Sequence record: PZ445554.1
DNA length: 64,000 bases
Source: a phage
Strand: one strand, 5' to 3'
The translations under genes were made by a program, and so were the position numbers. The notes under the pieces were generated by a model. That model was not told the DNA's origin. It was given only the letters and a program-made list of their open reading frames with translations, and ran no database searches. Numbering within the stretch: the first letter of the stretch is position 1; every line of letters begins with the position of its first letter. This document shows, piece by piece, positions 455 to 62,424 of this stretch.

Positions 455-490
455 AAGATAATACTATCACAAAGGAACCGTACTGTAAAC
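455..490 (-). promoter_or_regulatory. T4 early-type promoter upstream of ORF 101-433
   Basis: GTTTAC (485-490 complement) followed by GTGATAGTATTAT. Confidence 0.4.
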
Positions 491-15157: not shown

Positions 15158-15190
15158 GTAATAGTATCACACTACTACCCTGTTGTAAAC
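15158..15190 (-). promoter_or_regulatory. T4 early-type promoter
   Basis: GTTTAC-17 bp-GTGATACTAT. Confidence 0.45.
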
Positions 15191-15885: not shown

Positions 15886-15922
15886 TAGTTGTATAGTACC
15901 ATGGAAGGACAAGGATGTAAAC
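15886..15922 (-). promoter_or_regulatory. T4 early-type promoter (cassette copy) upstream of ORF 15622-15849
   Basis: GTTTAC-18 bp-TGGTACTATAC; part of a repeated cassette. Confidence 0.5.
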
Positions 15923-28001: not shown

Positions 28002-28802
28002 ATGGCAGTAGTTGGTGTTCCTGGTTGGATTGGTAGTTCATCCGTAAATGAAACAGGACAACGATGGATGAGTCAAGCGGCTGGTCAATTAAGATTGGGT
28101 GTTCCTTGCTGGATGAGTCAATTTGCAGGTCGCTCACGAGAAATTATTCATACACTTGGAGCAGACCATAACTTCAATGGTCAATGGTTCCGAGATAGAT
28201 GTTTTGAGGCCGGTAGTGCACCTATAGTGTTTAATATTACAGGTGATTTAGTATCATATTCTAAAGATGTTCCTTTATTCTTCATGTACGGGGATACGCC
28301 TAATGAATATGTTGTTCTTAATATTCATGGTGGTGTTCATATGTGGGGTCGTGGTGGTAATGGTGGATACACTCACTCGGGAGGCGACGGTAACGGTACA
28401 CAAGGCGGTCATGTTATTCAAAATGATATCGGTGGACGGCTTCGTATTTGGAACTACGGTGTTATAGCTGCTGGCGGTGGCGGCGGTGGTGGTATTGCAT
28501 ATCGTCCACACTCAGGGGCAAAATGGCAAGATATCGGTGGCGGTGGTGGTCGACCTTTCGGTGGCGCTGGCGGTGGCGGTTATTCCGGTGGTGCTGCTTC
28601 GTATGAAGGTCCGGGTGGTGGTTATGACTATGGTAACGCACACTCCGGCGCTGGTGGTAATGCTGGTGCTGCTGGTCAGAATGCATGGTCTGACGGCGGT
28701 AAAGTTCTTAAAGTTGGTGTTGGTGGTGCGTCTGGTCATGCAGTGTTTGGATCTTCTCCAACTTGGGGTGTTGTTGGAACAATTTACGGACCAAGAGTAT
28801 AA
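28002..28802 (+). CDS. 38: receptor-recognising tail fibre tip adhesin gp38 (T2-type, glycine-rich motifs)
   Basis: 266 aa with poly-Gly motifs (GGGGGGG) separated by variable segments; directly follows gp37. Confidence 0.75.
28380..28700 (+). repeat. glycine-codon repeats (GGT/GGC runs) encoding the gp38 glycine-rich motifs
   Basis: Low-complexity G-rich coding DNA; it produces spurious alternative-frame ORFs in the track. Confidence 0.7.
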
Positions 28803-28832: not shown

Positions 28833-29489
28833 ATGGCAGCACCTAGAATATCATTTTCGCCCTCTGATATTCTATTTGGTGTTCTAGATCGCTTGTTCAA
28901 AGATAATGCTACCGGGAAAGTTCTTGCTTCCCGGGTAGCTGTCGTAATTCTTTTGTTTATAATGGCGATTGTATGGTATAGGGGAGATAGTTTCTTTGAG
29001 TACTATAAGCAATCAAAGTATGAAACATACAGTGAAATTATTGAAAAGGAAAGAAATGCACGCTTTGAATCTGTCGCCCTGGAACAACTCCAGATAGTTC
29101 ATATATCATCTGAGGCAGACTTTAGTGCGGTGTATTCTTTCCGCCCTAAAAACTTAAACTATTTTGTTGATATTATAGCATATGAAGGAAGATTACCTTC
29201 AACAATAACTGAAAAATCACTTGGAGGATATCCTGTTGATAAAACTATGGATGAATATACAGTTCATTTAAATGGACGTCATTATTATTCCAACTCAAAA
29301 TTTGCTTTTTTACCAACTAAAAAGCCTACTCCCGAAATAAACTACATGTACAGTTGTCCATATTTTAATTTGGATAATATCTATGCTGGAACGATAACCA
29401 TGTACTGGTATAGAAATGATCATATAAGTAATGACCGCCTTGAATCAATATGTGCTCAGGCGGCCAGAATATTAGGAAGGGCTAAATAA
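28833..29489 (+). CDS. t: holin T
   Basis: 218 aa, single N-terminal TM helix and large periplasmic domain; sequence recognised as T4 holin. Confidence 0.9.
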   Translation: MAAPRISFSPSDILFGVLDRLFKDNATGKVLASRVAVVILLFIMAIVWYRGDSFFEYYKQSKYETYSEIIEKERNARFESVALEQLQIVHISSEADFSAVYSFRPKNLNYFVDIIAYEGRLPSTITEKSLGGYPVDKTMDEYTVHLNGRHYYSNSKFAFLPTKKPTPEINYMYSCPYFNLDNIYAGTITMYWYRNDHISNDRLESICAQAARILGRAK

Positions 29490-29762
29490 TTATTTGTTCG
29501 TATACATCTCTAGATATCGATATACACCCTCAAAACCCTCGTTGAATTCGTCGATGAGGGTTTTCTTATCTTCTTGAGTTAATTCAGAAACAATTTTACG
29601 GAATGAATTCTGATTTAACTTTCTACCTTCATGTGTTACTCCAATCTCATTCAGAAATGCAATAAAATTAGCACGATTCTCAACAATATCTTCTCTGGAA
29701 AATTTAATCAAAATAGACGCAACAGTAATAATTTCACGAACTGTATCAATATTTTTATTCAT
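29490..29762 (-). CDS. asiA: anti-sigma-70 factor AsiA
   Basis: 90 aa, sequence recognised as T4 AsiA (MNKNIDTVREIITVASILIKF...). Confidence 0.9.
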   Translation of the reverse strand: MNKNIDTVREIITVASILIKFSREDIVENRANFIAFLNEIGVTHEGRKLNQNSFRKIVSELTQEDKKTLIDEFNEGFEGVYRYLEMYTNK

Positions 29763-29774
29763 TAACTATACCAC

Positions 29775-29927
29775 TCAATTAGTTGACTTTGTTATAATAT
29801 CATCAGACGCTTGATTTGTAAACTGGTCTGTGTTATTTTCTTCAAAAATTTTTTCTACGAATTCTTTGAACGACTCACGTTCCTGAGTTACATTGTGCTC
29901 GATTACCATTTCAAGATTATAACTCAT
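29775..29927 (-). CDS. small ORF, about 50 aa (absent from track)
   Basis: ATG overlaps arn stop (ATGA); an early-promoter motif sits in its 3' end. Confidence 0.25.
   Translation of the reverse strand: MSYNLEMVIEHNVTQERESFKEFVEKIFEENNTDQFTNQASDDIITKSTN
29790..29823 (-). promoter_or_regulatory. T4 early-type promoter for asiA
   Basis: GTTTAC-17 bp-ATATTATAAC. Confidence 0.45.
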
Positions 29928-30202
29928 TCGAAATAATCTTCAATTTCGTAATCATGGACATAAATCATTATAGTTTCTAATACATCATCAATACTTTTTC
30001 CTGGAGCTGGAATTACGTAAAAATATCCTGCTTTTGAGAGGTCTTTATAAGTTCCAACCAAGAAATCATTATTCTCAAGATGTAGTTCTTCAACTAATTC
30101 ATTAACAATTAAGTGGTATAAATTTGGTAGAAACTTATATAGCTTTTCTAGAATATCAATTTTGATTGTGTATTGAACCACAGATTGAGAATCAATAATC
30201 AT
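29924..30202 (-). CDS. arn: anti-restriction nuclease Arn (McrBC inhibitor) candidate
   Basis: 92 aa acidic protein, length and position next to asiA match T4 Arn. Confidence 0.6.
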   Translation of the reverse strand: MIIDSQSVVQYTIKIDILEKLYKFLPNLYHLIVNELVEELHLENNDFLVGTYKDLSKAGYFYVIPAPGKSIDDVLETIMIYVHDYEIEDYFE

Positions 30203-30285
30203 AGACCTTCCCCTTATGTTTCTGTTTGCGATTAGATTCTTTAAACGCTTTCTTCTTATCCTTATGAACAGAAGCTTTATTAAAA

Positions 30286-30504
30286 TTATGCTTTGCGACT
30301 AAATTGTTCATAGTGCTGAATTACCTCTCTTAAACATTTGCATGTGAATGAAAACTTTTTAGCTACACCACATTCAAATATATGTTCTCTTAAATCACGT
30401 GTGTCAGTATATCCCATCTCAACAATAAAATGCCGTATTAGATTTTTATCTTTATCGTTGAGAGAATTAAAATAATCGGATTTTGAATTAATTTCCCTGG
30501 CCAA
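30286..30504 (-). CDS. hypothetical protein, 72 aa (TTG start)
   Basis: ORF track; SD AGGTGA upstream of TTG. Confidence 0.3.
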   Translation of the reverse strand: MAREINSKSDYFNSLNDKDKNLIRHFIVEMGYTDTRDLREHIFECGVAKKFSFTCKCLREVIQHYEQFSRKA

Positions 30505-30784
30505 ATTGAATCACCTTCAGTTGACGTTTTAGCTCTTTTATCATCTCTTCGTTCATCGCAATATAAAGATCGCGTAAAGCAGGTTTTATCATTCCATTTA
30601 TTGGGGAACTAAATGGGCATACATAATCTTTTCCTACGAGCTTTTTAGTGAATTCCATATCACAAAACTGAAATGCAGGTTCATTAGCATAAATTCCCCA
30701 ATTGGTTGACATCATTTTATTGGCATATTCCAATGCTTGGATTTGATTAGTAATTCCATCAATTTGAAACTTTTTAATATTCAT
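30488..30784 (-). CDS. hypothetical protein, 98 aa
   Basis: ORF track, ATG start. Confidence 0.45.
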   Translation of the reverse strand: MNIKKFQIDGITNQIQALEYANKMMSTNWGIYANEPAFQFCDMEFTKKLVGKDYVCPFSSPINGMIKPALRDLYIAMNEEMIKELKRQLKVIQFGQGN

Positions 30785-31251
30785 TAGTAAAGGTCCTCGG
30801 AGTAAAGTTCTTTTTCACTACCACCACGTTCAATACGCACTTGTCCAGCGTAAGTTGCAATAATCATTGCTTCTTCACGTGTCCAGTAATTGCTATACTG
30901 GTCAATAAATCCTTGGTCTTCACCACAAACATGGTCTGATACAAGTTTATCACTTACCTGGTCAAGAACTTCAGCCATATCTTTAGAATAATGACGAGCA
31001 CCAGGAATAACCAGAGTCCCACCATCTTTTAACTTAAAGCGGTTGGCTGCACACACAATTCGACGTTGATATTTTTCATTATTGTTCCAATGAGCTACTT
31101 GCCAACAGATTTCAGGAACCTCTTCTAAAACATCCTCTTCCGTATATTCGGTGTAGTCGCCATAGGCCTGTAATTTAGCTGCTAGACTTTCTGGAGTTTC
31201 ACGTAATAAAGCCAGGTCTAATAATTCAAGACGCTCTTTGAAGGTTTTCAT
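30784..31251 (-). CDS. hypothetical protein, 155 aa
   Basis: ORF track, ATG start. Confidence 0.5.
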
Positions 31252-31403
31252 TTGGTTTCCTCAACACTTTTAATTTTTATAGCTTGTTTAGAACTTTCAA
31301 AGCATTGACAATATACTCTTACCGCATCAAACTGGTTGGCCGCTTTAAGATGGACTACACCTTCGCCGTTATAAAATTCTACAACAATTTTAAATGTTTT
31401 CAT
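31248..31403 (-). CDS. small ORF, about 51 aa (absent from track)
   Basis: ATGA overlaps at both ends with neighbouring genes. Confidence 0.3.
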
Positions 31404-31729
31404 TTAAACCATCCTTTAATACGTTGCCATAAAGTTTTCTGTTGAGCTTTGTTAACACCAATTGAGCGAATAACTGGTTGAGATTCATGGAATTCTTTAT
31501 AATCAGCAAGGTAAATTTCGTAAGCTGAATCCATAAAGGAACTTATAGCTGCCATGAAATTATTGCGAATACCTACTGGAGCATCTTTACTTTCACGAAT
31601 AATCATGTATTTACCAGTCTTAATCTTTACAATAGTTCCAAGATAAGCCCCATGGTACCAGATGTCCCATCCCTCTTGAGTGGGTTCTGCGCAACGACGA
31701 AGTTCATTAATAATTTCTAACTTGTTCAT
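31400..31729 (-). CDS. hypothetical protein, 109 aa
   Basis: ORF track. Confidence 0.5.
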   Translation of the reverse strand: MNKLEIINELRRCAEPTQEGWDIWYHGAYLGTIVKIKTGKYMIIRESKDAPVGIRNNFMAAISSFMDSAYEIYLADYKEFHESQPVIRSIGVNKAQQKTLWQRIKGWFK

Positions 31730-31739
31730 TATTTATTCC

Positions 31740-32375
31740 TCACAGTTCAGACGCTACGGTGATTACTGCTTCAATGTTTTCTGCCGAGCGTTTAATGTCA
31801 AGATACACATTACCGTTTTTAGCGATTTTACATGACATTCCGATATCAGTAAATTTCTGAATATGATGTTCCATCATTTTGTATCCAAAAATTCGCATAT
31901 TTCCATTGTTGTTAATTTCAAAATTACGAATTCCGTGAGTGCGTTTTTCTAAAATAGCGAGATAGTTACTGCGGTAAGTTTCAACCTTTTTAAGAACAAA
32001 TCCATTTTCATCTAAAAGTTTTAACATGAAGTCTTTATCTTCTTCCATATCAGAAGTAATTTCGCGAGCTTTACGAGTTGCTCGTTTTTTCAGCAGTTCC
32101 GGAGCGTTTTCCTGTGCGTATAAAGTTGCTGCATTTGAAATAATATCCTGAGCTTCACCTGTAATGATTAATCCATCACCAGATTTCTCCACCAGGCCTT
32201 TTTTAATCAATACCCCAATATTACTATTAACTACTGCGTTACCTAAATCTGGATGCACCTCACGAACTTCTGCAGCTGTAATGAAATCTTTCTTAGCAAT
32301 GGTAATTAAAATCGCAGCAGTTTTTTCATTCAGAACATCGTTAGAAGCTTTGATGATGTAAGTTACTTTAGACAT
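31740..32375 (-). CDS. motA: middle-promoter transcription activator MotA
   Basis: 211 aa, sequence recognised as T4 MotA; early promoter and terminator upstream. Confidence 0.9.
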   Translation of the reverse strand: MSKVTYIIKASNDVLNEKTAAILITIAKKDFITAAEVREVHPDLGNAVVNSNIGVLIKKGLVEKSGDGLIITGEAQDIISNAATLYAQENAPELLKKRATRKAREITSDMEEDKDFMLKLLDENGFVLKKVETYRSNYLAILEKRTHGIRNFEINNNGNMRIFGYKMMEHHIQKFTDIGMSCKIAKNGNVYLDIKRSAENIEAVITVASEL

Positions 32376-32409
32376 TTTCTAATCTCCGTAATTCTGTATC
32401 AGTAGTTGA

Positions 32410-32446
32410 TAGTTGTATAGTACCACAGTATGCTTTGGTTGTAAAC
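32410..32446 (-). promoter_or_regulatory. T4 early-type promoter (cassette copy) for motA
   Basis: GTTTAC-18 bp-TGTGGTACTATAC. Confidence 0.5.
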
Positions 32447-32465
32447 CGTTTTGTGAAAAAATTTT

Positions 32466-32496
32466 TAAAATAAAAAGGGAGAGCCGAGGCTCTCCC
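32466..32496 (-). terminator. rho-independent terminator
   Basis: Stem GGGAGAGCC / GGCTCTCCC, then U-run on the minus-strand transcript. Confidence 0.55.
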
Positions 32497-32501
32497 TAAA
32501 A

Positions 32502-32651
32502 TTACTGCATGACTGTGATAACTGTCATGATAACACGTTGAATTCCGAACGCAAGAAGACCTCCTGCTACGGCTGGAACAACGCCTAAACCCGTCAGTAA
32601 AATGCTACCAGATACTAATGCAGCGCTTGTAATACCAATGAATGGACTCAT
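32502..32651 (-). CDS. small hydrophobic membrane protein, 49 aa (absent from track)
   Basis: SD GAGGAAA; ATG overlaps gene 52 stop; MSPFIGITSAALVSGSILLTG... Confidence 0.35.
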   Translation of the reverse strand: MSPFIGITSAALVSGSILLTGLGVVPAVAGGLLAFGIQRVIMTVITVMQ

Positions 32652-33976
32652 TTGATTTCCTCTAAATCTTTGGTGTATTCGGTAACTACATCAGTAGTTT
32701 TCCAATATTCGTTTTCTTCTTTTTTAGCTTTAGCTTCTTCAGCAAGTTTCTTTGCTTCGTCGGAAGTCATATGAAAAATATTCATTCCAACTAGTTTATC
32801 AACATAAGAAGAATACATATCAATTTTAGAAAGTTCTTCGGTCAGTTCTTTACGAGTTTTACCCTGTACAACAATTTCACCTGAAATTACTTTCTTAATG
32901 AAATGTGCCTTGGCAAAAGCTAAACGAAAAGCTGACTCAGTTTCTTTAATTTTGTTATCAATTCGTTTTTGGACATAAGTTTTACGAACTTCAACGAAGT
33001 CTTTAATTAAATCAACCACGTTATCGTAAACTTGTAGTTTTCCTTTCTCATTAATAACCGTAATATTCTGAGAACGACGCTCAATCAACCCGAAGTCTTT
33101 CATAATTTTTGCATGGCGTTCTTCTTCGTTATCGCTCAAAGAGTATTCTTTGCGGAATTTAACTTTGAAGCCAAAGCCATGCTCACCACAAGCATCATCC
33201 CATGTAATGAAGCCTTTATCTTCAAGCGGGTCTAAGATTTTACTCACATAAGTTTCACGATCATACTTATATGGAATCTCAGTGATATGCATTTGAGTTC
33301 GTGAAGTAAACTTGTATGTTCCACGAATTTCATATTGCCCATCAATTTCAACGACTTCACCACGAAATTCTGGGAATTCTACCTTCGGTTTAGTTACTTT
33401 CTTTCCTTGAAGAGCTTGCAGTACAGCTTTCTTGACAGAAGAAACACTATGAGGAAGAATGTAAGTTGCATAACCAGTTGCAATACCGGAAACACCATTA
33501 AGAAGAACGGTAGGAATAATAGGCAAATAGAAAGCAGGCGGAATGTGTTCTTTATCTTGATGTACTGGAGCATATTCAGTATCTTTATATACGTTATAGA
33601 AATTTTTACTTACACGAGCAAAAATATAACGACTTGCCGCTGCCTTTTGGACAGTACGAGAACCGAAGTTTCCTTGACCATCTAACAGAGGAAAGTTATT
33701 ATTCCAAGTGTTAGCCATCAAAGCGCCTGCGTCTTGTGCAGAGTTTTCGCCATGGTGATATCCGAGGTCCGCTACACCACCTGCAATAGAAGCGAGTTTG
33801 TGAAACTTATCTTTATTTCCTCGTGCCAAATCAAGAGCTCGAGCAATAACAAATCGTTGAACTGGCTTAAATCCATCAATCATATTTGGGATAGCACGAT
33901 TTTCAACCGTGTACATAGCATAAGCCAATGCTTCATTATCAATGATACTTTTTAAATCGCGATTATTCAGTTGCAT
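32648..33976 (-). CDS. 52: DNA topoisomerase II medium subunit gp52
   Basis: 442 aa, GyrA/ParC-like breakage-reunion domain. Confidence 0.9.
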   Translation of the reverse strand: MQLNNRDLKSIIDNEALAYAMYTVENRAIPNMIDGFKPVQRFVIARALDLARGNKDKFHKLASIAGGVADLGYHHGENSAQDAGALMANTWNNNFPLLDGQGNFGSRTVQKAAASRYIFARVSKNFYNVYKDTEYAPVHQDKEHIPPAFYLPIIPTVLLNGVSGIATGYATYILPHSVSSVKKAVLQALQGKKVTKPKVEFPEFRGEVVEIDGQYEIRGTYKFTSRTQMHITEIPYKYDRETYVSKILDPLEDKGFITWDDACGEHGFGFKVKFRKEYSLSDNEEERHAKIMKDFGLIERRSQNITVINEKGKLQVYDNVVDLIKDFVEVRKTYVQKRIDNKIKETESAFRLAFAKAHFIKKVISGEIVVQGKTRKELTEELSKIDMYSSYVDKLVGMNIFHMTSDEAKKLAEEAKAKKEENEYWKTTDVVTEYTKDLEEIK

Positions 33977-33981
33977 AAATT

Positions 33982-34122
33982 TACCATACTAGTGAATGTA
34001 GTGCCATAATAACATCAGAAATGAAAAGCACGACTTGAATTAATCCGAACATTACTCCATAATATAGTGCTATTAATAAAATAGCAAGGGCTAATGAATA
34101 GCCCAAGATTTTCTTAATCATT
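33982..34122 (-). CDS. small membrane protein, about 46 aa (absent from track)
   Basis: Hydrophobic ORF immediately upstream of gene 52. Confidence 0.25.
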
Positions 34123-34269
34123 AGATAACAGCACAAATGTTAAATATGCACACATACCCTGGGCTAAAGCCTGCGAAAACACACTACTGGCATCGATACA
34201 GATAGTTAAAACACATGCTACTATCCAACAAATAAATGAAATAACTCCTAATAATTTTGCGATATTCAT
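34117..34269 (-). CDS. small membrane protein, about 50 aa (Ac-like size; absent from track)
   Basis: Strong SD GAGGAG; Cys-rich hydrophobic sequence. Confidence 0.35.
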
Positions 34270-34365
34270 AGTATTCTCCTCAACTATTTTTAAAACCTAA
34301 AATACCAAAGTTTTTAAGATTGTCACGATAGAACTGCATCACATGTTCGTTATGGAAATTACTCA

Positions 34366-34824
34366 TTAATATGCCTGCAAAACAAATTTAAAGTTATCAG
34401 CCAACATACGGTTCATTTCTTCAAGTGTTTGATACTCAGAATGATGATTACGAGTAAACGCCAAAGCTAACTGACCTTTACCAAATCCTGTCGTCAGAGG
34501 TTTCATCTTAGAAGCAGGCAGATAAAATACTGTGTATGGAACATTGTTATTTGCAATAGTACGCGCAAGCTGAGACCGACGCTGACGAATATGACTTAGA
34601 ACCGCACTGAATCCTTGCTTAGAACGCTGATTACCTACATAAAATCGTGCAGACACGCACGGATTACTAAATGGACGACCATCTAATTTACTCACTAAAA
34701 AGTAAAATCCAGGTTTAGATAAAATATCTTTATGCGGAGTTCCCAAAAACCACTCACCGCCCTTGATTGTACCAATAACAGTAGCGCCTGCATTATTCAG
34801 ATCAGTAACAGTCATATATTTCAT
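34366..34824 (-). CDS. ndd: Ndd-like nucleoid disruption protein (candidate)
   Basis: 152 aa from ATG at 34822-34824 with SD GAGGAAA (track start is GTG); T4 Ndd is 151 aa; position between 52 and denB. Confidence 0.4.
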
Positions 34825-34884
34825 ATTAATTTCCTCTAAATTATTTTCTACTCCAAGGCCGCATGGATACACACGGCCATTAAA

Positions 34885-35100
34885 TTAATCGTCGCAGTCG
34901 ACGCTCAATTCCCAGAATTCTTCTACGGTATAAGTTTCAGTATCATTTTCAATACAGAAACGTTCATTACTATTGTTTGCTAAAGTAGCATTAACTGTCA
35001 TTTTTTCGCTAGTGCTCTTAAGAGGTGAAATACGAATTAACTGATCACCGTTATCTAAACAAAAAATTTCACCAACTTTTACATCTTTAAAACTTTTCAT
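34885..35100 (-). CDS. hypothetical protein, 71 aa
   Basis: ORF track. Confidence 0.4.
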   Translation of the reverse strand: MKSFKDVKVGEIFCLDNGDQLIRISPLKSTSEKMTVNATLANNSNERFCIENDTETYTVEEFWELSVDCDD

Positions 35101-35215
35101 AATTCACCTCAAGGAGTATAAAATCCAAACGCAGTTGTTGACCATCCCATCCAATATGGAAAATTTGCACCAATGTAAAACATAAGAATATAAAACCAAC
35201 CGCTCAGCAAATTCA

Positions 35216-35413
35216 TCATTTTACACCATTCCAAATTGTTTCAACCACGGATTTTAAACCATTTTGATGAATATCAATTCCGACTACTGTCATCAAATAG
35301 ATTCCAACTACAACTGAACCTAAGGCAAAAATCAGCATGAAAATGAATAAAGCCGGAAAAATATTATCGAAAAACCATTCAATAAATGTAAAAGCACTGC
35401 GTTTACGCTTCAT
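35216..35413 (-). CDS. small membrane protein, about 65 aa
   Basis: ATG at 35411-35413 with SD GAGGAAAA (track TTG start rejected). Confidence 0.4.
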   Translation of the reverse strand: MKRKRSAFTFIEWFFDNIFPALFIFMLIFALGSVVVGIYLMTVVGIDIHQNGLKSVVETIWNGVK

Positions 35414-35420
35414 ATTTTCC

Positions 35421-35534
35421 TCACATAAATCCAAAGTAAACGTTTAATACATCAATCATTAAAACGATTGGGAATATACTCAAAACTACTAGTATTATAA
35501 CTACATTCCATATAGCTTTAATAATCTTTTTCAT
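35421..35534 (-). CDS. small membrane peptide, 37 aa
   Basis: ATG at 35532-35534 with SD GGAGG just downstream of a promoter cassette; the track's longer form translates the cassette itself. Confidence 0.3.
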   Translation of the reverse strand: MKKIIKAIWNVVIILVVLSIFPIVLMIDVLNVYFGFM

Positions 35535-35555
35535 TTTCTGTTCCTCCGTAGTTGA

Positions 35556-35593
35556 TAGGGTAATAGTACCACGGAAGAACAGTCTTGTAAACA
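35556..35593 (-). promoter_or_regulatory. T4 early-type promoter (cassette copy)
   Basis: GTTTAC-spacer-CGTGGTACTATTAC. Confidence 0.45.
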
Positions 35594-35776
35594 ACTTTTT
35601 AAAAATATTCGTAATAAATGTGAATACCAACTACTACCGCTGAAACCTGTGCAACCCACCACGCACAAGCAATAAGTACAGAATTCAAAATTTTCATAAT
35701 AACCTCATCACAAAAGTAAATGTTAAACAAATTAATGGAATACTAATTAACCAAACAAAACACCACCATAATGAAC

Positions 35777-36040
35777 TCATAGTTCAATCTCAGCGATTTT
35801 CATTTCATTATTGTTAATAGCATTTTTAAGACTATCCGAAAGAATTACATTCCAGTGGTCATTCATATGACCATTAACTAAGCGTGTAATTTCTTCGGGA
35901 GTTGAAAAATAAGGCGTATCAGACTCCCAATGCGATAATCCTAAGCGAGTATAAATCATGCCTTCATCATCGCTAGAATATTCAACTGACACAAACTCAT
36001 CAGTTATTTTATGTTTAGCGTAATAAAATTTAAATTTCAT
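35777..36040 (-). CDS. hypothetical protein, 87 aa
   Basis: ATG at 36038-36040 with SD GGAG downstream of promoter cassette 36068-36104; the track form starting at 36139 runs through the cassette. Confidence 0.4.
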   Translation of the reverse strand: MKFKFYYAKHKITDEFVSVEYSSDDEGMIYTRLGLSHWESDTPYFSTPEEITRLVNGHMNDHWNVILSDSLKNAINNNEMKIAEIEL

Positions 36041-36067
36041 TTTACTCTCCAAATCCGTATCAGTTGA

Positions 36068-36104
36068 TAGTTGTATAGTACCACGGTCCTTGTGGTATGT
36101 AAAC
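36068..36104 (-). promoter_or_regulatory. T4 early-type promoter (cassette copy)
   Basis: GTTTAC-spacer-CGTGGTACTATAC. Confidence 0.45.
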
Positions 36105-36120
36105 CATTTTGTGAAATTTT

Positions 36121-36678
36121 TTAAATGGAAAGATACCATCCGCTGTAGTTGCTTTTTCTTACAACCTTACGAAGGTCTTCTCTATCACCGATGAACTTCG
36201 GAGTGTATTGGATGACACCTGGATGAATTTCTTTAGTGTTGAATATAATTATACAGTCAGCGACTTGATGATTTAGAATGGGCCCTAGATTTATTCCAGA
36301 ACCATATGGATACTCTCCGCTGCATCCTGTTGTCACCGAAATCCAACGTGAGTCAGTTTGATGTGTCTTAACTTCTACACGAAGCCCGCAGTATCTTGGA
36401 TGCGCCAATACATCCCATGCATATGTGTACGGATCATCGACATCTTCTTGACCTTTGTTAACATACCCGCTCAGCCAATCTGCTACAAAAAACTCTGCGT
36501 ACACAGCGATACGGCATCTTTCGATAACTTCTGCCTTATCCTGATTTGGGTTTTGTTTTAAAGAGTATCTTGCAGTATCAACAATTTTGACCTTCATTTC
36601 ACTAGTCAAGTCACTGTTCGATAGGGTAAATGTCGGAATCTGAAATAGTCTCTGTAACCCCGGATTCGTTTTCTGCAT
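36121..36678 (-). CDS. denB: endonuclease IV
   Basis: 185 aa equals T4 EndoIV length; SD AAGGAAAG; position upstream of rIIB. Confidence 0.6.
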   Translation of the reverse strand: MQKTNPGLQRLFQIPTFTLSNSDLTSEMKVKIVDTARYSLKQNPNQDKAEVIERCRIAVYAEFFVADWLSGYVNKGQEDVDDPYTYAWDVLAHPRYCGLRVEVKTHQTDSRWISVTTGCSGEYPYGSGINLGPILNHQVADCIIIFNTKEIHPGVIQYTPKFIGDREDLRKVVRKSNYSGWYLSI

Positions 36679-36940
36679 TTAAACTTTCCTTTTTACCACT
36701 AAGATAAGCGTTATACACTTTAAGAGTACCATAGTAAATTCGATCATTTTCATCTAAAGAATTACGATCAAGTTCATCGAGATTCTTTTTGTCCATGACT
36801 ATAACATCATTGCAGTAAAGAACTCCAAGTTTTTCATGCCCAAACTCGAATTTATTGCAGTACACAATATTAGCGTAATGATTACCATGTAGAGAAATTT
36901 CTTTTATGTCGGTGTCACCGATATTCATACAATAAATCAT
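36611..36940 (-). CDS. hypothetical protein, 109 aa
   Basis: ORF track; overlaps denB N-terminus by 68 nt in another frame, so uncertain. Confidence 0.35.
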   Translation of the reverse strand: MIYCMNIGDTDIKEISLHGNHYANIVYCNKFEFGHEKLGVLYCNDVIVMDKKNLDELDRNSLDENDRIYYGTLKVYNAYLSGKKESLNAENESGVTETISDSDIYPIEQ

Positions 36941-36976: not shown

Positions 36977-37171
36977 TTATTTGAATTGTTCAATTCTTTT
37001 CTCTAAACAGTCAGCATAAGATTTCATTGAGATAAACTGCGAAAGTAACAGTTCTTGCTCAACTGCACTAACTGTTAGAAACTTTGCGCTTTCTAAAAAT
37101 TTGCTCAGTGCATTAATTTTGAGCATTAATTGATCGTATTCTTCTTTTACTCGTGCTTGATAACCTAACAT
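36977..37171 (-). CDS. hypothetical helical protein, 64 aa
   Basis: ORF track; flanked on both sides by identical stem-loops. Confidence 0.4.
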   Translation of the reverse strand: MLGYQARVKEEYDQLMLKINALSKFLESAKFLTVSAVEQELLLSQFISMKSYADCLEKRIEQFK

Positions 37172-43933: not shown

Positions 43934-44104
43934 AATTTCCTCATTAATTGAACATTGGAGCGATGCGTTTCAGAAGAGTATCAGCGCACCTTTAACGAAT
44001 TATCCATTTTATTCTTCAAGTTGTTTTCTGTATCAGTAGTTGATATTGATATAGTACCATAATCAACTACTGATGTATATAGTTTTATGAAAAAATTTTA
44101 AACT

Positions 44105-45703: not shown

Positions 45704-45742
45704 ATGGTGTTATAATACCACAACTAACCGAGGAAGTAAACA
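45704..45742 (-). promoter_or_regulatory. T4 early-type promoter
   Basis: GTTTAC-17 bp-GTGGTATTATAAC. Confidence 0.5.
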
Positions 45743-62387: not shown

Positions 62388-62424
62388 AGTTGTATAGTAC
62401 CATGGAAGAACAGGGATGTAAACA
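62388..62424 (-). promoter_or_regulatory. T4 early-type promoter (cassette copy)
   Basis: GTTTAC-18 bp-ATGGTACTATAC. Confidence 0.5.

What the first reader, a model, noticed from the sequence alone, without database searches (positions are those of the whole stretch)
29490..36678. Dense host-takeover locus with many unassigned small ORFs
This interval holds AsiA, a 92-aa Arn-like protein, MotA, an Ndd-sized protein and endonuclease IV, interleaved with at least ten small unassigned ORFs. Many are coupled by ATGA overlaps, and the block contains several of the promoter cassettes. In T-even phages such regions are hyperplastic and are where lineage-specific accessory genes accumulate, so the unassigned ORFs are the best places to look for unknown anti-defence functions.
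Basis: partly seen in the sequence, partly recalled or inferred. Interest (0 to 1): 0.4.

Follow-up and report, generated by a model that had tools for sequence, protein, structure and literature searches.

The report
T4-type early host-takeover gene block
This stretch is the well-known asiA-to-denB early gene block of a T4-like coliphage, with 8 genes of known host-takeover function and 15 small conserved genes of unknown function, all already catalogued in hundreds of sequenced phages, so it is ordinary.

Summary
Window 29490-36678 holds 23 minus-strand genes (93.6% coding). They are colinear with the asiA-denB block of T4-type phages: 97.5% nucleotide identity to the best record, and 450 phage records cover at least 80% of the interval. 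Fifteen small ORFs have no assigned function, but every one belongs to an existing family and is 92-100% identical to a phage RB14 gene. The 'promoter cassettes' are four copies of the T4 early promoter (GTTTACA-N14-TGGTACTAT). These are the published PeSL recombination elements, and the ndd.4-denB stretch is one of the published examples of PeSL-mediated exchange. Presence/absence across ten T4-like phages shows a conserved skeleton (asiA, motA, 52, ndd, denB) with variable filling, so the region is hyperplastic. No anti-defence role is shown for any unassigned ORF, and six or seven of them are single-pass membrane peptides. Side findings: arn.1 is really 72 aa with a TTG start, and the published ArcZ pairing site lies on its codons 2-5. 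The arn.3-arn.2-arn.1 trio also occurs in a Vequintavirinae phage. arn.3 belongs to a very large phage-only family with a confident model and no PDB relative. Novelty: already known.

The parts
29490..29762 (-). asiA, anti-sigma-70 factor (90 aa)
   Evidence: PF09010 E 1e-42; 100% identical to T4/RB14 AsiA
29775..29927 (-). asiA.1 (50 aa, acidic, pI 4.3), unassigned; ATGA-coupled to arn
   Evidence: phrog_3762 E 1e-36; found only in the Tequatrovirus phages of the matrix; junction
29924..30202 (-). arn, DNA-mimic inhibitor of McrBC (92 aa); carries S70, as in T2
   Evidence: PF22134 E 1e-51; alignment with T4 and T2; role of residue 70 from PMC12871103
30192..30311 (-). RB32ORF249c-type ORF (39 aa, pI 10.2, DUF7230), unassigned; overlaps the arn start and the arn.1 end
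   Evidence: PF23876 E 1e-11; phrog_1359; 62-100% identical in 9 of 10 T4-like phages; 100% identical in T4, where it is not annotated
30286..30504 (-). arn.1, long form (72 aa, TTG start overlapping the arn.2 stop by 17 nt), unassigned
   Evidence: phrog_4452 covers 1-71 of 72; the N-terminal 29 aa are conserved in T4, T2 and Vequintavirinae phage A73, which has ATG at the homologous codon, with Ser TCC versus AGT; 803 of 808 phage hits cover at least 80% of the 72 aa; AAGGTG 7 nt upstream
30488..30784 (-). arn.2 (98 aa), unassigned; its 3' end carries the published ArcZ pairing site (+285..+294 = 30500-30491)
   Evidence: phrog_1844; site identical to T2; preprint 10.64898/2026.06.19.733364
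30784..31251 (-). arn.3 (155 aa; Pfam T4_Y16D domain in residues ~45-155), unassigned
   Evidence: phrog_839; homologues carry PF26092; 1570 phage records; 2899 50%-identity clusters; AF2 model pLDDT 87.6; no PDB relative
31248..31403 (-). RB32ORF252c-type ORF (51 aa), unassigned, variable (absent from T4 and T2)
   Evidence: phrog_15636; matrix; ATGA junctions on both sides
31400..31729 (-). arn.4 (109 aa), unassigned
31740..32375 (-). motA, activator of middle transcription (211 aa)
   Evidence: PF09114 + PF09158; 98-100% identical to T4/RB14
32404..32458 (-). early promoter cassette upstream of motA (-35 TTTACA starts at 32445; extended -10 TGGTACTAT)
   Evidence: repeat family D1; pattern search; same position in T4, RB14, RB32 and APTC-EC-2A
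32476..32497 (-). intrinsic-terminator-like hairpin after motA.1 (9-bp stem, T run); with the promoter downstream it forms a complete PeSL
   Evidence: sequence; PeSL definition in PMC4122927
32502..32651 (-). motA.1 (49 aa, TM-like), unassigned
   Evidence: phrog_3487; hydropathy
32648..33976 (-). gene 52, topoisomerase II medium subunit (442 aa)
   Evidence: PF00521 E 9e-77; 100% identical to T4 gp52
33981..34121 (-). 52.1 (46 aa, TM-like, DUF7396), unassigned; contains a MotA-box-like site (GTGCTTTTC-N-TATTAT, starting 34030) upstream of gene 52
   Evidence: PF24129 E 1e-22; hydropathy; motif scan
34114..34269 (-). ac, acridine-sensitivity membrane protein (51 aa)
   Evidence: 100% identical to T4 Ac; phrog_2501; TM-like
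34280..34366 (-). stp, 28-aa variant of the PrrC anticodon-nuclease activator peptide, with a T2-like C-terminus
   Evidence: PF08133 E 5e-14; 96% identical to T2, 79% to T4
34366..34824 (-). ndd, nucleoid disruption protein (152 aa)
   Evidence: PF06591 E 1.4e-95
34885..35100 (-). ndd.1 (71 aa, acidic), unassigned
   Evidence: phrog_2183
35109..35216 (-). ndd.2 (35 aa, aromatic and hydrophobic), unassigned
   Evidence: phrog_4135
35216..35413 (-). ndd.2a (65 aa, TM-like, DUF7248), unassigned; corresponds to ndd.2a plus ndd.3, which T4 annotates separately
   Evidence: PF23906 E 6.5e-19; T4 annotation; 95% identity over 98% of its length in T4 DNA
35421..35534 (-). ndd.4 (37 aa, TM-like), unassigned
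   Evidence: phrog_3098
35550..35604 (-). early promoter cassette upstream of ndd.4
35599..35697 (-). ndd.5 (32 aa, TM-like), unassigned
   Evidence: phrog_5011
35777..36040 (-). RB14ncORF269c-type ORF (87 aa, acidic), unassigned, variable cassette (T4 has ndd.6 here; RB32 has ORF266c)
   Evidence: phrog_2390 covers residues 34-120 of the longer 120-aa reading
36062..36116 (-). early promoter cassette upstream of the variable cassette
36121..36678 (-). denB, endonuclease IV (185 aa)
   Evidence: phrog_1360 E 1e-96; 98% identical to T4 DenB
29781..29835 (-). early promoter cassette for asiA, lying inside asiA.1

Best explanation
This is the standard asiA-to-denB early/middle transcription block of a Tequatrovirus (T4/RB14-like coliphage).

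Inferred from the promoter matches and from established T4 biology: host RNA polymerase reads the block leftward (minus strand) straight after infection from four near-identical sigma-70 early promoters. Genes within each unit are packed at 93.6% density, and half of the junctions have overlapping stop and start codons.

The products with known roles, assigned here by homology, carry out host takeover:
- AsiA and MotA redirect sigma-70 to phage middle promoters.
- Arn mimics DNA and blocks McrBC.
- Stp affects the EcoprrI/PrrC system.
- Ndd collapses the nucleoid.
- DenB cuts cytosine-containing DNA.
- gp52 is a topoisomerase II subunit.
- Ac affects acridine uptake.

Fifteen small conserved accessory genes of unknown function lie between them. 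Six or seven of these are single-pass membrane peptides; the rest are small soluble proteins.

Gene content varies between relatives by gain, loss or swap of whole ORFs next to the repeated promoter (and promoter/terminator) elements. This is the published PeSL recombination mechanism. The variation is shown here by comparison; the recombination mechanism itself is taken from the literature.
For: - Megablast: 936 phage records match and 450 cover at least 80% of the interval. The best is 97.5% identical, and several records (U115, a48, ESh31, F1, FN) align colinearly in one piece over 100% of the interval.
- Every RB14 gene from t to rIIB except RB32ORF266c maps to the window in the same order. 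Most are 92-100% identical at protein level; the exceptions are stp (79%) and gp38, which lies outside the interval (63%).
- Pfam and PHROG identify all known genes, and all 15 unassigned ORFs hit a PHROG family.
- The four promoter cassettes are a repeat family and are enriched 10 versus 0.06 expected. They match the published PST/T4 PeSL consensus TTTACW-N17-TAYWAT and sit at the same places in T4, RB14, RB32 and APTC-EC-2A.
- The cassette behind the denB-proximal promoter differs between phages: ndd.6 in T4, ORF266c in RB32, ORF266c + ORF269c in RB14, ORF269c alone here. APTC-EC-2A has an extra 75-aa ORF between the motA promoter and motA.
- The presence/absence matrix shows a conserved skeleton with variable filling.
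- Coding density, Shine-Dalgarno sites and overlaps.
- Literature: PeSLs, with the ndd.4/.5 exchange as a worked example (PMC4122927); DenB and Arn roles (PMC2993671); the arn.4-to-arn transcript and the still-unknown functions of arn.1-4 (10.64898/2026.06.19.733364).
Against: Nothing contradicts this reading.

Limits:
- Promoter activity, transcription units and translational coupling are inferred from sequence and from T4 literature, not measured for this phage.
- Only one of the four cassettes (motA) has the upstream stem-loop of a complete PeSL.
- No strong MotA box was found upstream of arn.4, although the preprint calls the arn cluster a middle unit.
- The functions of 15 of the 23 genes remain unknown.
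Confidence: 0.93

Rival explanations
1. The block is chiefly an anti-defence island: most of the 15 unassigned small ORFs are dedicated inhibitors of bacterial immune systems.
For: - Two neighbours are proven defence-related effectors (Arn, Stp). Arn also blocks a second system, PUA-Cal-HAD (PMC12871103).
- The genes are early, small, dispensable-type and variable between relatives.
- The arn.3-arn.2-arn.1 trio has moved between unrelated phage families, which is typical of accessory counter-defence genes.
- Several products are small and acidic like DNA mimics: asiA.1 pI 4.3, ndd.1 4.3, ORF269c 4.9.
- The 2026 preprint voices the same guess for arn.1-4.
Against: - No sequence or fold match to any known anti-defence protein.
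- Six or seven of the 15 are 32-65-aa hydrophobic peptides. These are more easily read as envelope-acting factors.
- ORF249c, arn.3, arn.4 and 52.1 are conserved across genera and hosts, which fits a general infection function better than a strain-specific counter-defence.
- No paper in the library assigns a function.
Confidence: 0.25
2. Many of the small ORFs are chance reading frames in AT-rich DNA, not genes.
For: - Several are very short (28-51 aa). The ORF listing reports many overlapping alternative frames.
- Five starts lack a Shine-Dalgarno motif.
- RB32 notes say 52.1 and stp were not predicted by gene finders.
Against: - All are on the transcribed strand, tile the DNA almost without gaps (93.6%), and mostly have Shine-Dalgarno sites or coupled starts.
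- All hit PHROG protein families with E 1e-21 to 1e-71.
- Protein-level conservation reaches distant genera at 35-87% identity.
- arn.1 shows synonymous Ser codon replacement (TCC versus AGT) between T-even phages and A73.
Confidence: 0.03
3. The interval contains something new to this phage: a lineage-specific gene or arrangement not present in sequenced T-even phages.
For: The best database match is only 97.5% identical. The window differs from its two closest annotated relatives by one cassette each.
Against: - Several records align over 100% of the interval in a single piece, so the arrangement already exists in the database.
- Each ORF is 92-100% identical to RB14, or 96% to T2 for stp.
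Confidence: 0.02

Closest known systems
Phage T4 asiA-denB region (NC_000866.4, 160878-167660)
   Same: Same gene order and orientation, between t (holin) and rIIB. The same four early promoters sit at the same places. Proteins are 92-100% identical for most genes.
   Different: - The window has ORF252c, ORF269c and (just outside the interval) ORF268c, which T4 lacks.
- T4 has ndd.6 instead of ORF269c.
- arn.3 is a different allele (74% identical).
- stp has a T2-like C-terminus (79% identical to T4).
- Arn has S70, where T4 has N70.
- T4 has no ATG at the 109-aa arn.4 start.
Phage RB14 (FJ839692) and colinear Tequatrovirus genomes such as U115 (MZ753803), a48 and ESh31
   Same: RB14: 97.2% nucleotide identity, and every window ORF is annotated there. 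U115 and the others align over 100% of the interval in one piece.
   Different: RB14 carries one extra ORF (RB32ORF266c) between ORF269c and denB. APTC-EC-2A carries an extra 75-aa ORF between the motA promoter and motA.
PeSL elements (promoter-early stem-loop) of T4-like phages (Arbiol 2010, PMC2839356; Comeau 2014, PMC4122927)
   Same: The promoters match the published T4/PST consensus TTTACW-N17-TAYWAT. They are repeated, lie in the variable region, and sit next to ORF indels. The ndd.4/.5 locus is the published example.
   Different: Only the motA copy has the upstream stem-loop. The other three are promoter-only ('half') elements. Recombination at them is inferred, not observed.
Pfam T4_Y16D (PF26092), the arn.3 family
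   Same: All 120 listed homologues but one (a 104-aa fragment) carry this Pfam domain. The conserved core is ...RRIVCAANR...G.RH.D...QGFIDQ...REEA..IA..AGQ...LFSEDLY.
   Different: The family has no assigned function and no solved structure. The window protein adds a variable 45-residue helical N-terminus.

Membership tests
Tequatrovirus asiA-denB early block | Synteny t / asiA ... motA / 52 / ndd ... denB / rIIB, transcribed opposite to t | tested here: met
Tequatrovirus asiA-denB early block | High nucleotide identity over the whole interval to sequenced members | tested here: met
   97.5% for the best record; 450 records cover at least 80% of the interval
AsiA / MotA sigma-appropriation pair | AsiA domain, plus MotA N-terminal activation domain and C-terminal DNA-binding domain | tested here: met
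   PF09010, PF09114 and PF09158, E 1e-42 to 1e-67
AsiA / MotA sigma-appropriation pair | Binding to sigma-70 region 4 and to MotA boxes | not testable with these tools
   Inferred from 98-100% identity to the T4 proteins
Arn DNA mimic | DM_Arn domain over the full length | tested here: met
   PF22134 E 1e-51; 95% identical to T4 Arn
Arn DNA mimic | N70, needed by T4 Arn to inhibit PUA-Cal-HAD (PMC12871103) | tested here: not met
   The window has S70, as do T2 and RB14. McrBC inhibition is not affected by this as far as known.
Stp (anticodon nuclease activator) | Match to the 26-residue Nuclease_act profile | tested here: met
   PF08133 E 5e-14 over residues 1-24. The C-terminal part differs from T4 and matches T2 at 96%.
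Ndd | Full-length Phage_T4_Ndd domain | tested here: met
   PF06591 E 1.4e-95
DenB endonuclease IV | Full-length similarity to T4 DenB | tested here: met
   phrog_1360 E 1e-96; 98% identical. No Pfam model and no PDB relative.
PeSL element | Early promoter TTTACW-N17-TAYWAT, repeated | tested here: met
   Four copies in the interval and 10 in the window, against 0.06 expected
PeSL element | Stem-loop immediately upstream of the promoter | tested here: inconclusive
   Present at the motA copy (32497-32476). Not found at the other three.
PeSL element | Association with ORF insertions, deletions or replacements between close relatives | tested here: met
   The cassette after the denB-proximal promoter and the extra ORF after the motA promoter differ among T4, RB32, RB14, APTC-EC-2A and the window
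Known anti-defence protein families (for the 15 unassigned ORFs) | Sequence or fold similarity to a characterised defence inhibitor | tested here: not met
   Pfam and PHROGs give only unknown-function families. PDB sequence search was run for arn.3 and arn.4. Fold searches were run for arn.3 and arn.4 only. The other 13 were not modelled.

The most novel reading that the evidence does not exclude
arn.3-arn.2-arn.1 is a mobile three-gene module exchanged as a unit between T4-like phages and Vequintavirinae. Its largest protein, arn.3 (T4_Y16D domain), belongs to a family of about 2,900 50%-identity clusters found in T4-like, rV5-like, phi92-like, Vi01-like and jumbo phages. In this reading arn.3 is an enzyme or binder of a phosphorylated ligand, built on a fold absent from the PDB, and it acts in counter-defence or nucleotide metabolism. 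Translation of arn.1 from its real TTG start would be directly controlled by the host sRNA ArcZ, whose pairing site covers arn.1 codons 2-5.
Probability: 0.15. Interest if true: 0.5.

Novelty: already known. Interest (0 to 1): 0.14.

Why it matters
As a finding it matters little. The locus, its gene content, its variability and its promoter cassettes are all described for T4 and its relatives, and the same arrangement is present in deposited genomes.

Its value is as a reminder that 15 of 23 genes in one of the best-studied stretches of phage DNA still have no function.

Three small points could help people who work on it:
- arn.1 should be annotated as 72 aa with a TTG start. The 'intergenic region' used in a 2026 ArcZ/RNase E study is therefore coding, and ArcZ pairs on arn.1's initiation region.
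- The arn.3 domain is one of the larger uncharacterised phage-only families. It gives a confident model with no solved relative.
- This phage's Arn carries S70, the T2-type residue reported not to block PUA-Cal-HAD.

Tried and rejected
- Pfam on all unassigned ORFs: only DUF7230, DUF7396 and DUF7248; nothing for the rest.
- PDB sequence search for arn.3, arn.4 and DenB: no significant match.
- Profile search with arn.3: 2,899 clusters. Ten members with long N-terminal extensions had no Pfam domain, so fusions gave no clue.
- A NADAR gene lies near arn.3 homologues in A73 and PcCB7V. It is too loosely linked (1-4 genes away, and not present in T4-like phages) to build on.
- Rfam and tRNA scans of the whole window found nothing.
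- MotA-box scan: one plausible middle promoter (starting 34030, upstream of gene 52) and none upstream of arn.4.
- The generic sigma-70 scan is not enriched (32 found versus 30.9 expected). Only the specific T4-type cassette is enriched.
- Literature searches for ndd.x, motA.1, asiA.1 and Y16D returned nothing relevant apart from the ArcZ preprint. The HIDEN-SEQ and CRISPRi-ART main texts do not discuss these genes.
- The longer alternative readings of ORF269c (120 aa), ndd (168 aa), ndd.4 (69 aa) and ndd.5 (43 aa) were rejected. Family profiles and RB14/T4 annotation match the short forms, and for ORF269c and ndd.4 the extension would start upstream of the promoter.

Full report
WHAT IS THERE. 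The interval 29490-36678 is AT-rich (30-39% GC) with negative GC skew, which fits genes on the minus strand. ORF listing and tblastn with the annotated genes of phage RB14 give 23 minus-strand genes that cover 93.6% of the 7189 bases. The median product is 71 aa. In transcription order (right to left) they are: denB, ORF269c, ndd.5, ndd.4, ndd.2a, ndd.2, ndd.1, ndd, stp, ac, 52.1, 52, motA.1, motA, arn.4, ORF252c, arn.3, arn.2, arn.1, ORF249c, arn, asiA.1, asiA. The block lies between the holin gene t (28833-29489, plus strand, PF11031) and ORF268c/denB.1/rIIB.

IDENTITY OF THE WINDOW. Megablast of the interval against 50,697 phage records finds 936 records, and 450 cover at least 80% of it. 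The best are Tequatrovirus phages: APTC-EC-2A 97.5%, D5505 97.4%, RB14 97.2%. Several (U115, a48, ESh31, F1, FN) align over 100% of the interval in a single piece, so the exact arrangement is already in the database. Every RB14 gene from t to rIIB except RB32ORF266c maps to the window in the same order. Most are 92-100% identical at protein level; the exceptions are stp (79%) and gp38, which lies outside the interval (63%).

All are right.
- AsiA: PF09010, 1e-42.
- MotA: PF09114 + PF09158.
- gp52: PF00521.
- Arn: PF22134, 1e-51.
- Ndd: PF06591, 1.4e-95.
- Stp: PF08133, 5e-14.
- DenB: phrog_1360, 1e-96, 98% identical to T4 DenB.
- Ac: 100% identical to T4 Ac.
The roles of DenB and Arn are summarised in PMC2993671. 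The other roles are established T4 knowledge that I cite from memory (Miller et al. 2003 is not held in the library).

THE UNASSIGNED ORFS. Fifteen genes have no function: asiA.1, ORF249c, arn.1, arn.2, arn.3, ORF252c, arn.4, motA.1, 52.1, ndd.1, ndd.2, ndd.2a, ndd.4, ndd.5 and ORF269c. Several lines show they are real genes.
- All hit PHROG families with E 1e-21 to 1e-71.
- Three have Pfam DUFs: DUF7230, DUF7396 and DUF7248.
- 18 of the 23 starts have a Shine-Dalgarno-like motif.
- 11 of 22 junctions overlap: 4 ATGA, 3 single-base and 4 longer overlaps (and for arn.2/arn.1).
By hydropathy, motA.1, 52.1, ac, ndd.2a, ndd.4 and ndd.5 each have one clear transmembrane-like segment, and ndd.2 is aromatic and hydrophobic. 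About half of the unknowns are therefore tiny membrane peptides. asiA.1, ndd.1, ORF269c and arn.3 are acidic. ORF249c is very basic (pI 10.2).

PROMOTER CASSETTES. The repeat finder gives one four-copy family of 55 nt at 29781-29835, 32404-32458, 35550-35604 and 36062-36116. Its core, GTTTACA-N14-TGGTACTAT, occurs 10 times in the 64-kb window, always on the minus strand, against 0.06 expected. Generic sigma-70 matches are not enriched. The core equals the published consensus of T4/PST early promoters in PeSL elements, TTTACW-N17-TAYWAT (PMC4122927). The motA copy is preceded by a strong terminator-like hairpin (32497-32476), which makes a complete PeSL. The other three copies lack a stem-loop. 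The same four promoters sit at the same positions in T4, RB14, RB32 and APTC-EC-2A.

HYPERPLASTICITY. I fetched the homologous region from T4, T2, RB14, RB32, APTC-EC-2A, a Mosigvirus (moha), a Gaprivervirus (VR7), a Gelderlandvirus (STP4-a), a Klebsiella Marfavirus (MY02) and an Acinetobacter T4-like phage. Every window protein was scored against them.
- Present in all ten: asiA, motA, 52, ndd, denB and rIIB.
- Widely but not universally kept: ORF249c, arn.3, arn.4, arn.1 and 52.1.
- Confined to the Tequatrovirus phages: asiA.1, motA.1 and ndd.5. Nearly confined to them: ac, ndd.2, ndd.2a and ndd.4, each with one or two weak matches in other genera.
- Variable even within Tequatrovirus: ORF252c, ORF269c and ORF268c.
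- The Acinetobacter phage has asiA directly next to motA, and only two small ORFs between 52 and ndd.
Behind the denB-proximal promoter, T4 has ndd.6, RB32 has ORF266c, RB14 has ORF266c + ORF269c, and the window has ORF269c alone. APTC-EC-2A has an extra 75-aa ORF between the motA promoter and motA. Comeau et al. show the exchange of ndd.4/.5 at this very locus as their example of PeSL-mediated swapping.

MECHANISM. Shown here: gene identities, promoter repeats, the terminator hairpin, overlaps, and variability next to promoters. Inferred from T4 biology: the four promoters fire immediately after infection. One unit probably runs from 35591 through ndd.4...52-motA.1 to the hairpin at 32497-32476. 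The next runs from 32445 through motA and the arn cluster. asiA has its own promoter inside asiA.1. A MotA-box-like site starting at 34030 may add middle transcription of gene 52. A 2026 preprint reports arn.4-arn.3-arn.2-arn.1-arn as one abundant transcript in T2.

ATTEMPTS TO ASSIGN FUNCTIONS.
- The other unassigned ORFs were not modelled.
- No paper in the library assigns a function to any of them.

SIDE FINDINGS.
(1) arn.1 is 72 aa, not 43. The frame opens with TTG at 30504, 17 nt inside arn.2, with AAGGTG 7 nt upstream. The 29 extra residues are almost invariant between T4, T2 and the Vequintavirinae phage A73. A73 has ATG at the homologous codon and a Ser TCC/AGT replacement. phrog_4452 is a 72-residue profile that is matched end to end. 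803 of 808 tblastn hits cover at least 80% of the long form. Mosigvirus and Gaprivervirus annotations already use it. The TTG is arn.2 position +281. The ArcZ pairing site reported at +285..+294 (CCAGGGAAAT, identical here and in T2) therefore covers arn.1 codons 2-5. The 70-nt 'intergenic region' of that study is coding.
(2) arn.3-arn.2-arn.1 occur in the same order in phage A73 (Vequintavirinae), at 79%, 34% and 78% identity to the window. A73's arn.2 is of the Mosigvirus type (60% identical). The trio therefore moved as a unit.
(3) Arn here has S70, like T2 and RB14. T4's N70 is reported to be needed to block PUA-Cal-HAD.
(4) stp is a 28-aa T2-type variant.

VERDICT. All its ORFs, its promoter cassettes and its plasticity are already catalogued. 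The anti-defence idea for the unknown ORFs is plausible, untested and not new. Interest is low. The side findings are modest annotation and lead-generation points.

Noticed in passing
window 30286-30504 (-): arn.1 is almost certainly 72 aa with a TTG start that overlaps arn.2, not the 43-aa form annotated in T4 and RB14. The ArcZ pairing site of a 2026 preprint (arn.2 +285..+294 = 30500-30491) lies on arn.1 codons 2-5, and that study's 70-nt 'intergenic region' is coding.
   Followed up: yes
window 30286-31251; L004 5979-6914 (phage A73, Vequintavirinae): The arn.3-arn.2-arn.1 trio is present in the same order in an rV5-like phage (79%, 34% and 78% aa identity). Its arn.2 is of the Mosigvirus type, so the three genes travel together between unrelated phage families.
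   Followed up: partly
window 30784-31251 (-): The arn.3 (T4_Y16D) domain is very widespread: 1570 phage records and 2,899 clusters at 50% identity. It also occurs in jumbo, Vi01-like and phi92-like phages. It gives a confident model with no PDB relative and has an invariant C-terminal ...SEDLY tail.
   Followed up: partly
window 29924-30202 (-), residue 70: Arn has Ser70, as in T2 and RB14. T4's Asn70 is reported as necessary for inhibiting the PUA-Cal-HAD defence, so this phage may be sensitive to that system.
   Followed up: partly
window 34280-34366 (-): stp encodes a 28-aa peptide whose C-terminal part differs from T4 Stp (26 aa) and matches T2. The N-terminal 14 residues are identical to T4, from my recollection of the T4 sequence.
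   Followed up: partly
L003 5128-5466 (T4) versus window 31400-31729: T4 itself has an Ile codon where the window and most relatives have the ATG of the 109-aa arn.4, which is why T4 annotates only a 68-aa product. The rest of the frame is open and 95% identical.
   Followed up: partly
window 30192-30311 (-): A 39-aa very basic ORF (DUF7230) overlaps both arn and arn.1. It is 100% identical in T4, where it is not annotated, and it is conserved in 9 of 10 T4-like phages compared.
   Followed up: partly
window 36611-36940 and 36977-37171 (-): Just outside the interval, ORF268c (109 aa, DUF7418; absent from T4 and T2) overlaps the denB start by 68 nt. denB.1 belongs to the Pfam family 'crAss001_48 related protein'.
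   Followed up: no
window 28002-28802 (+): The glycine-rich gp38 adhesin upstream of t is only 63% identical to that of RB14, although the flanking genes are 97-100% identical. This is a host-range module swap.
   Followed up: no
window 29532-29564 (+): A 14-bp-stem hairpin followed by a T-rich run lies on the plus strand inside the asiA coding sequence, 43 nt past the stop of t. It could terminate late transcripts of t.
   Followed up: no
window 461-490, 15161-15190, 15893-15922, 44051-44080, 45712-45741, 62394-62423 (-): Six more copies of the early-promoter core (GTTTACA-N14-TGGTACTAT, at most 2 mismatches) lie elsewhere in the window, all on the minus strand.
   Followed up: no
window 34114-34269 (-) versus L014 7627-7782 (RB32): The ac gene of RB32 is only 41% identical to the window's and T4's ac, although neighbouring genes are 96-100% identical. 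This is an allelic replacement inside the block. arn.3 likewise exists as two alleles (window/RB14/RB32 type versus T4/T2 type, 74-75% identical).
   Followed up: no
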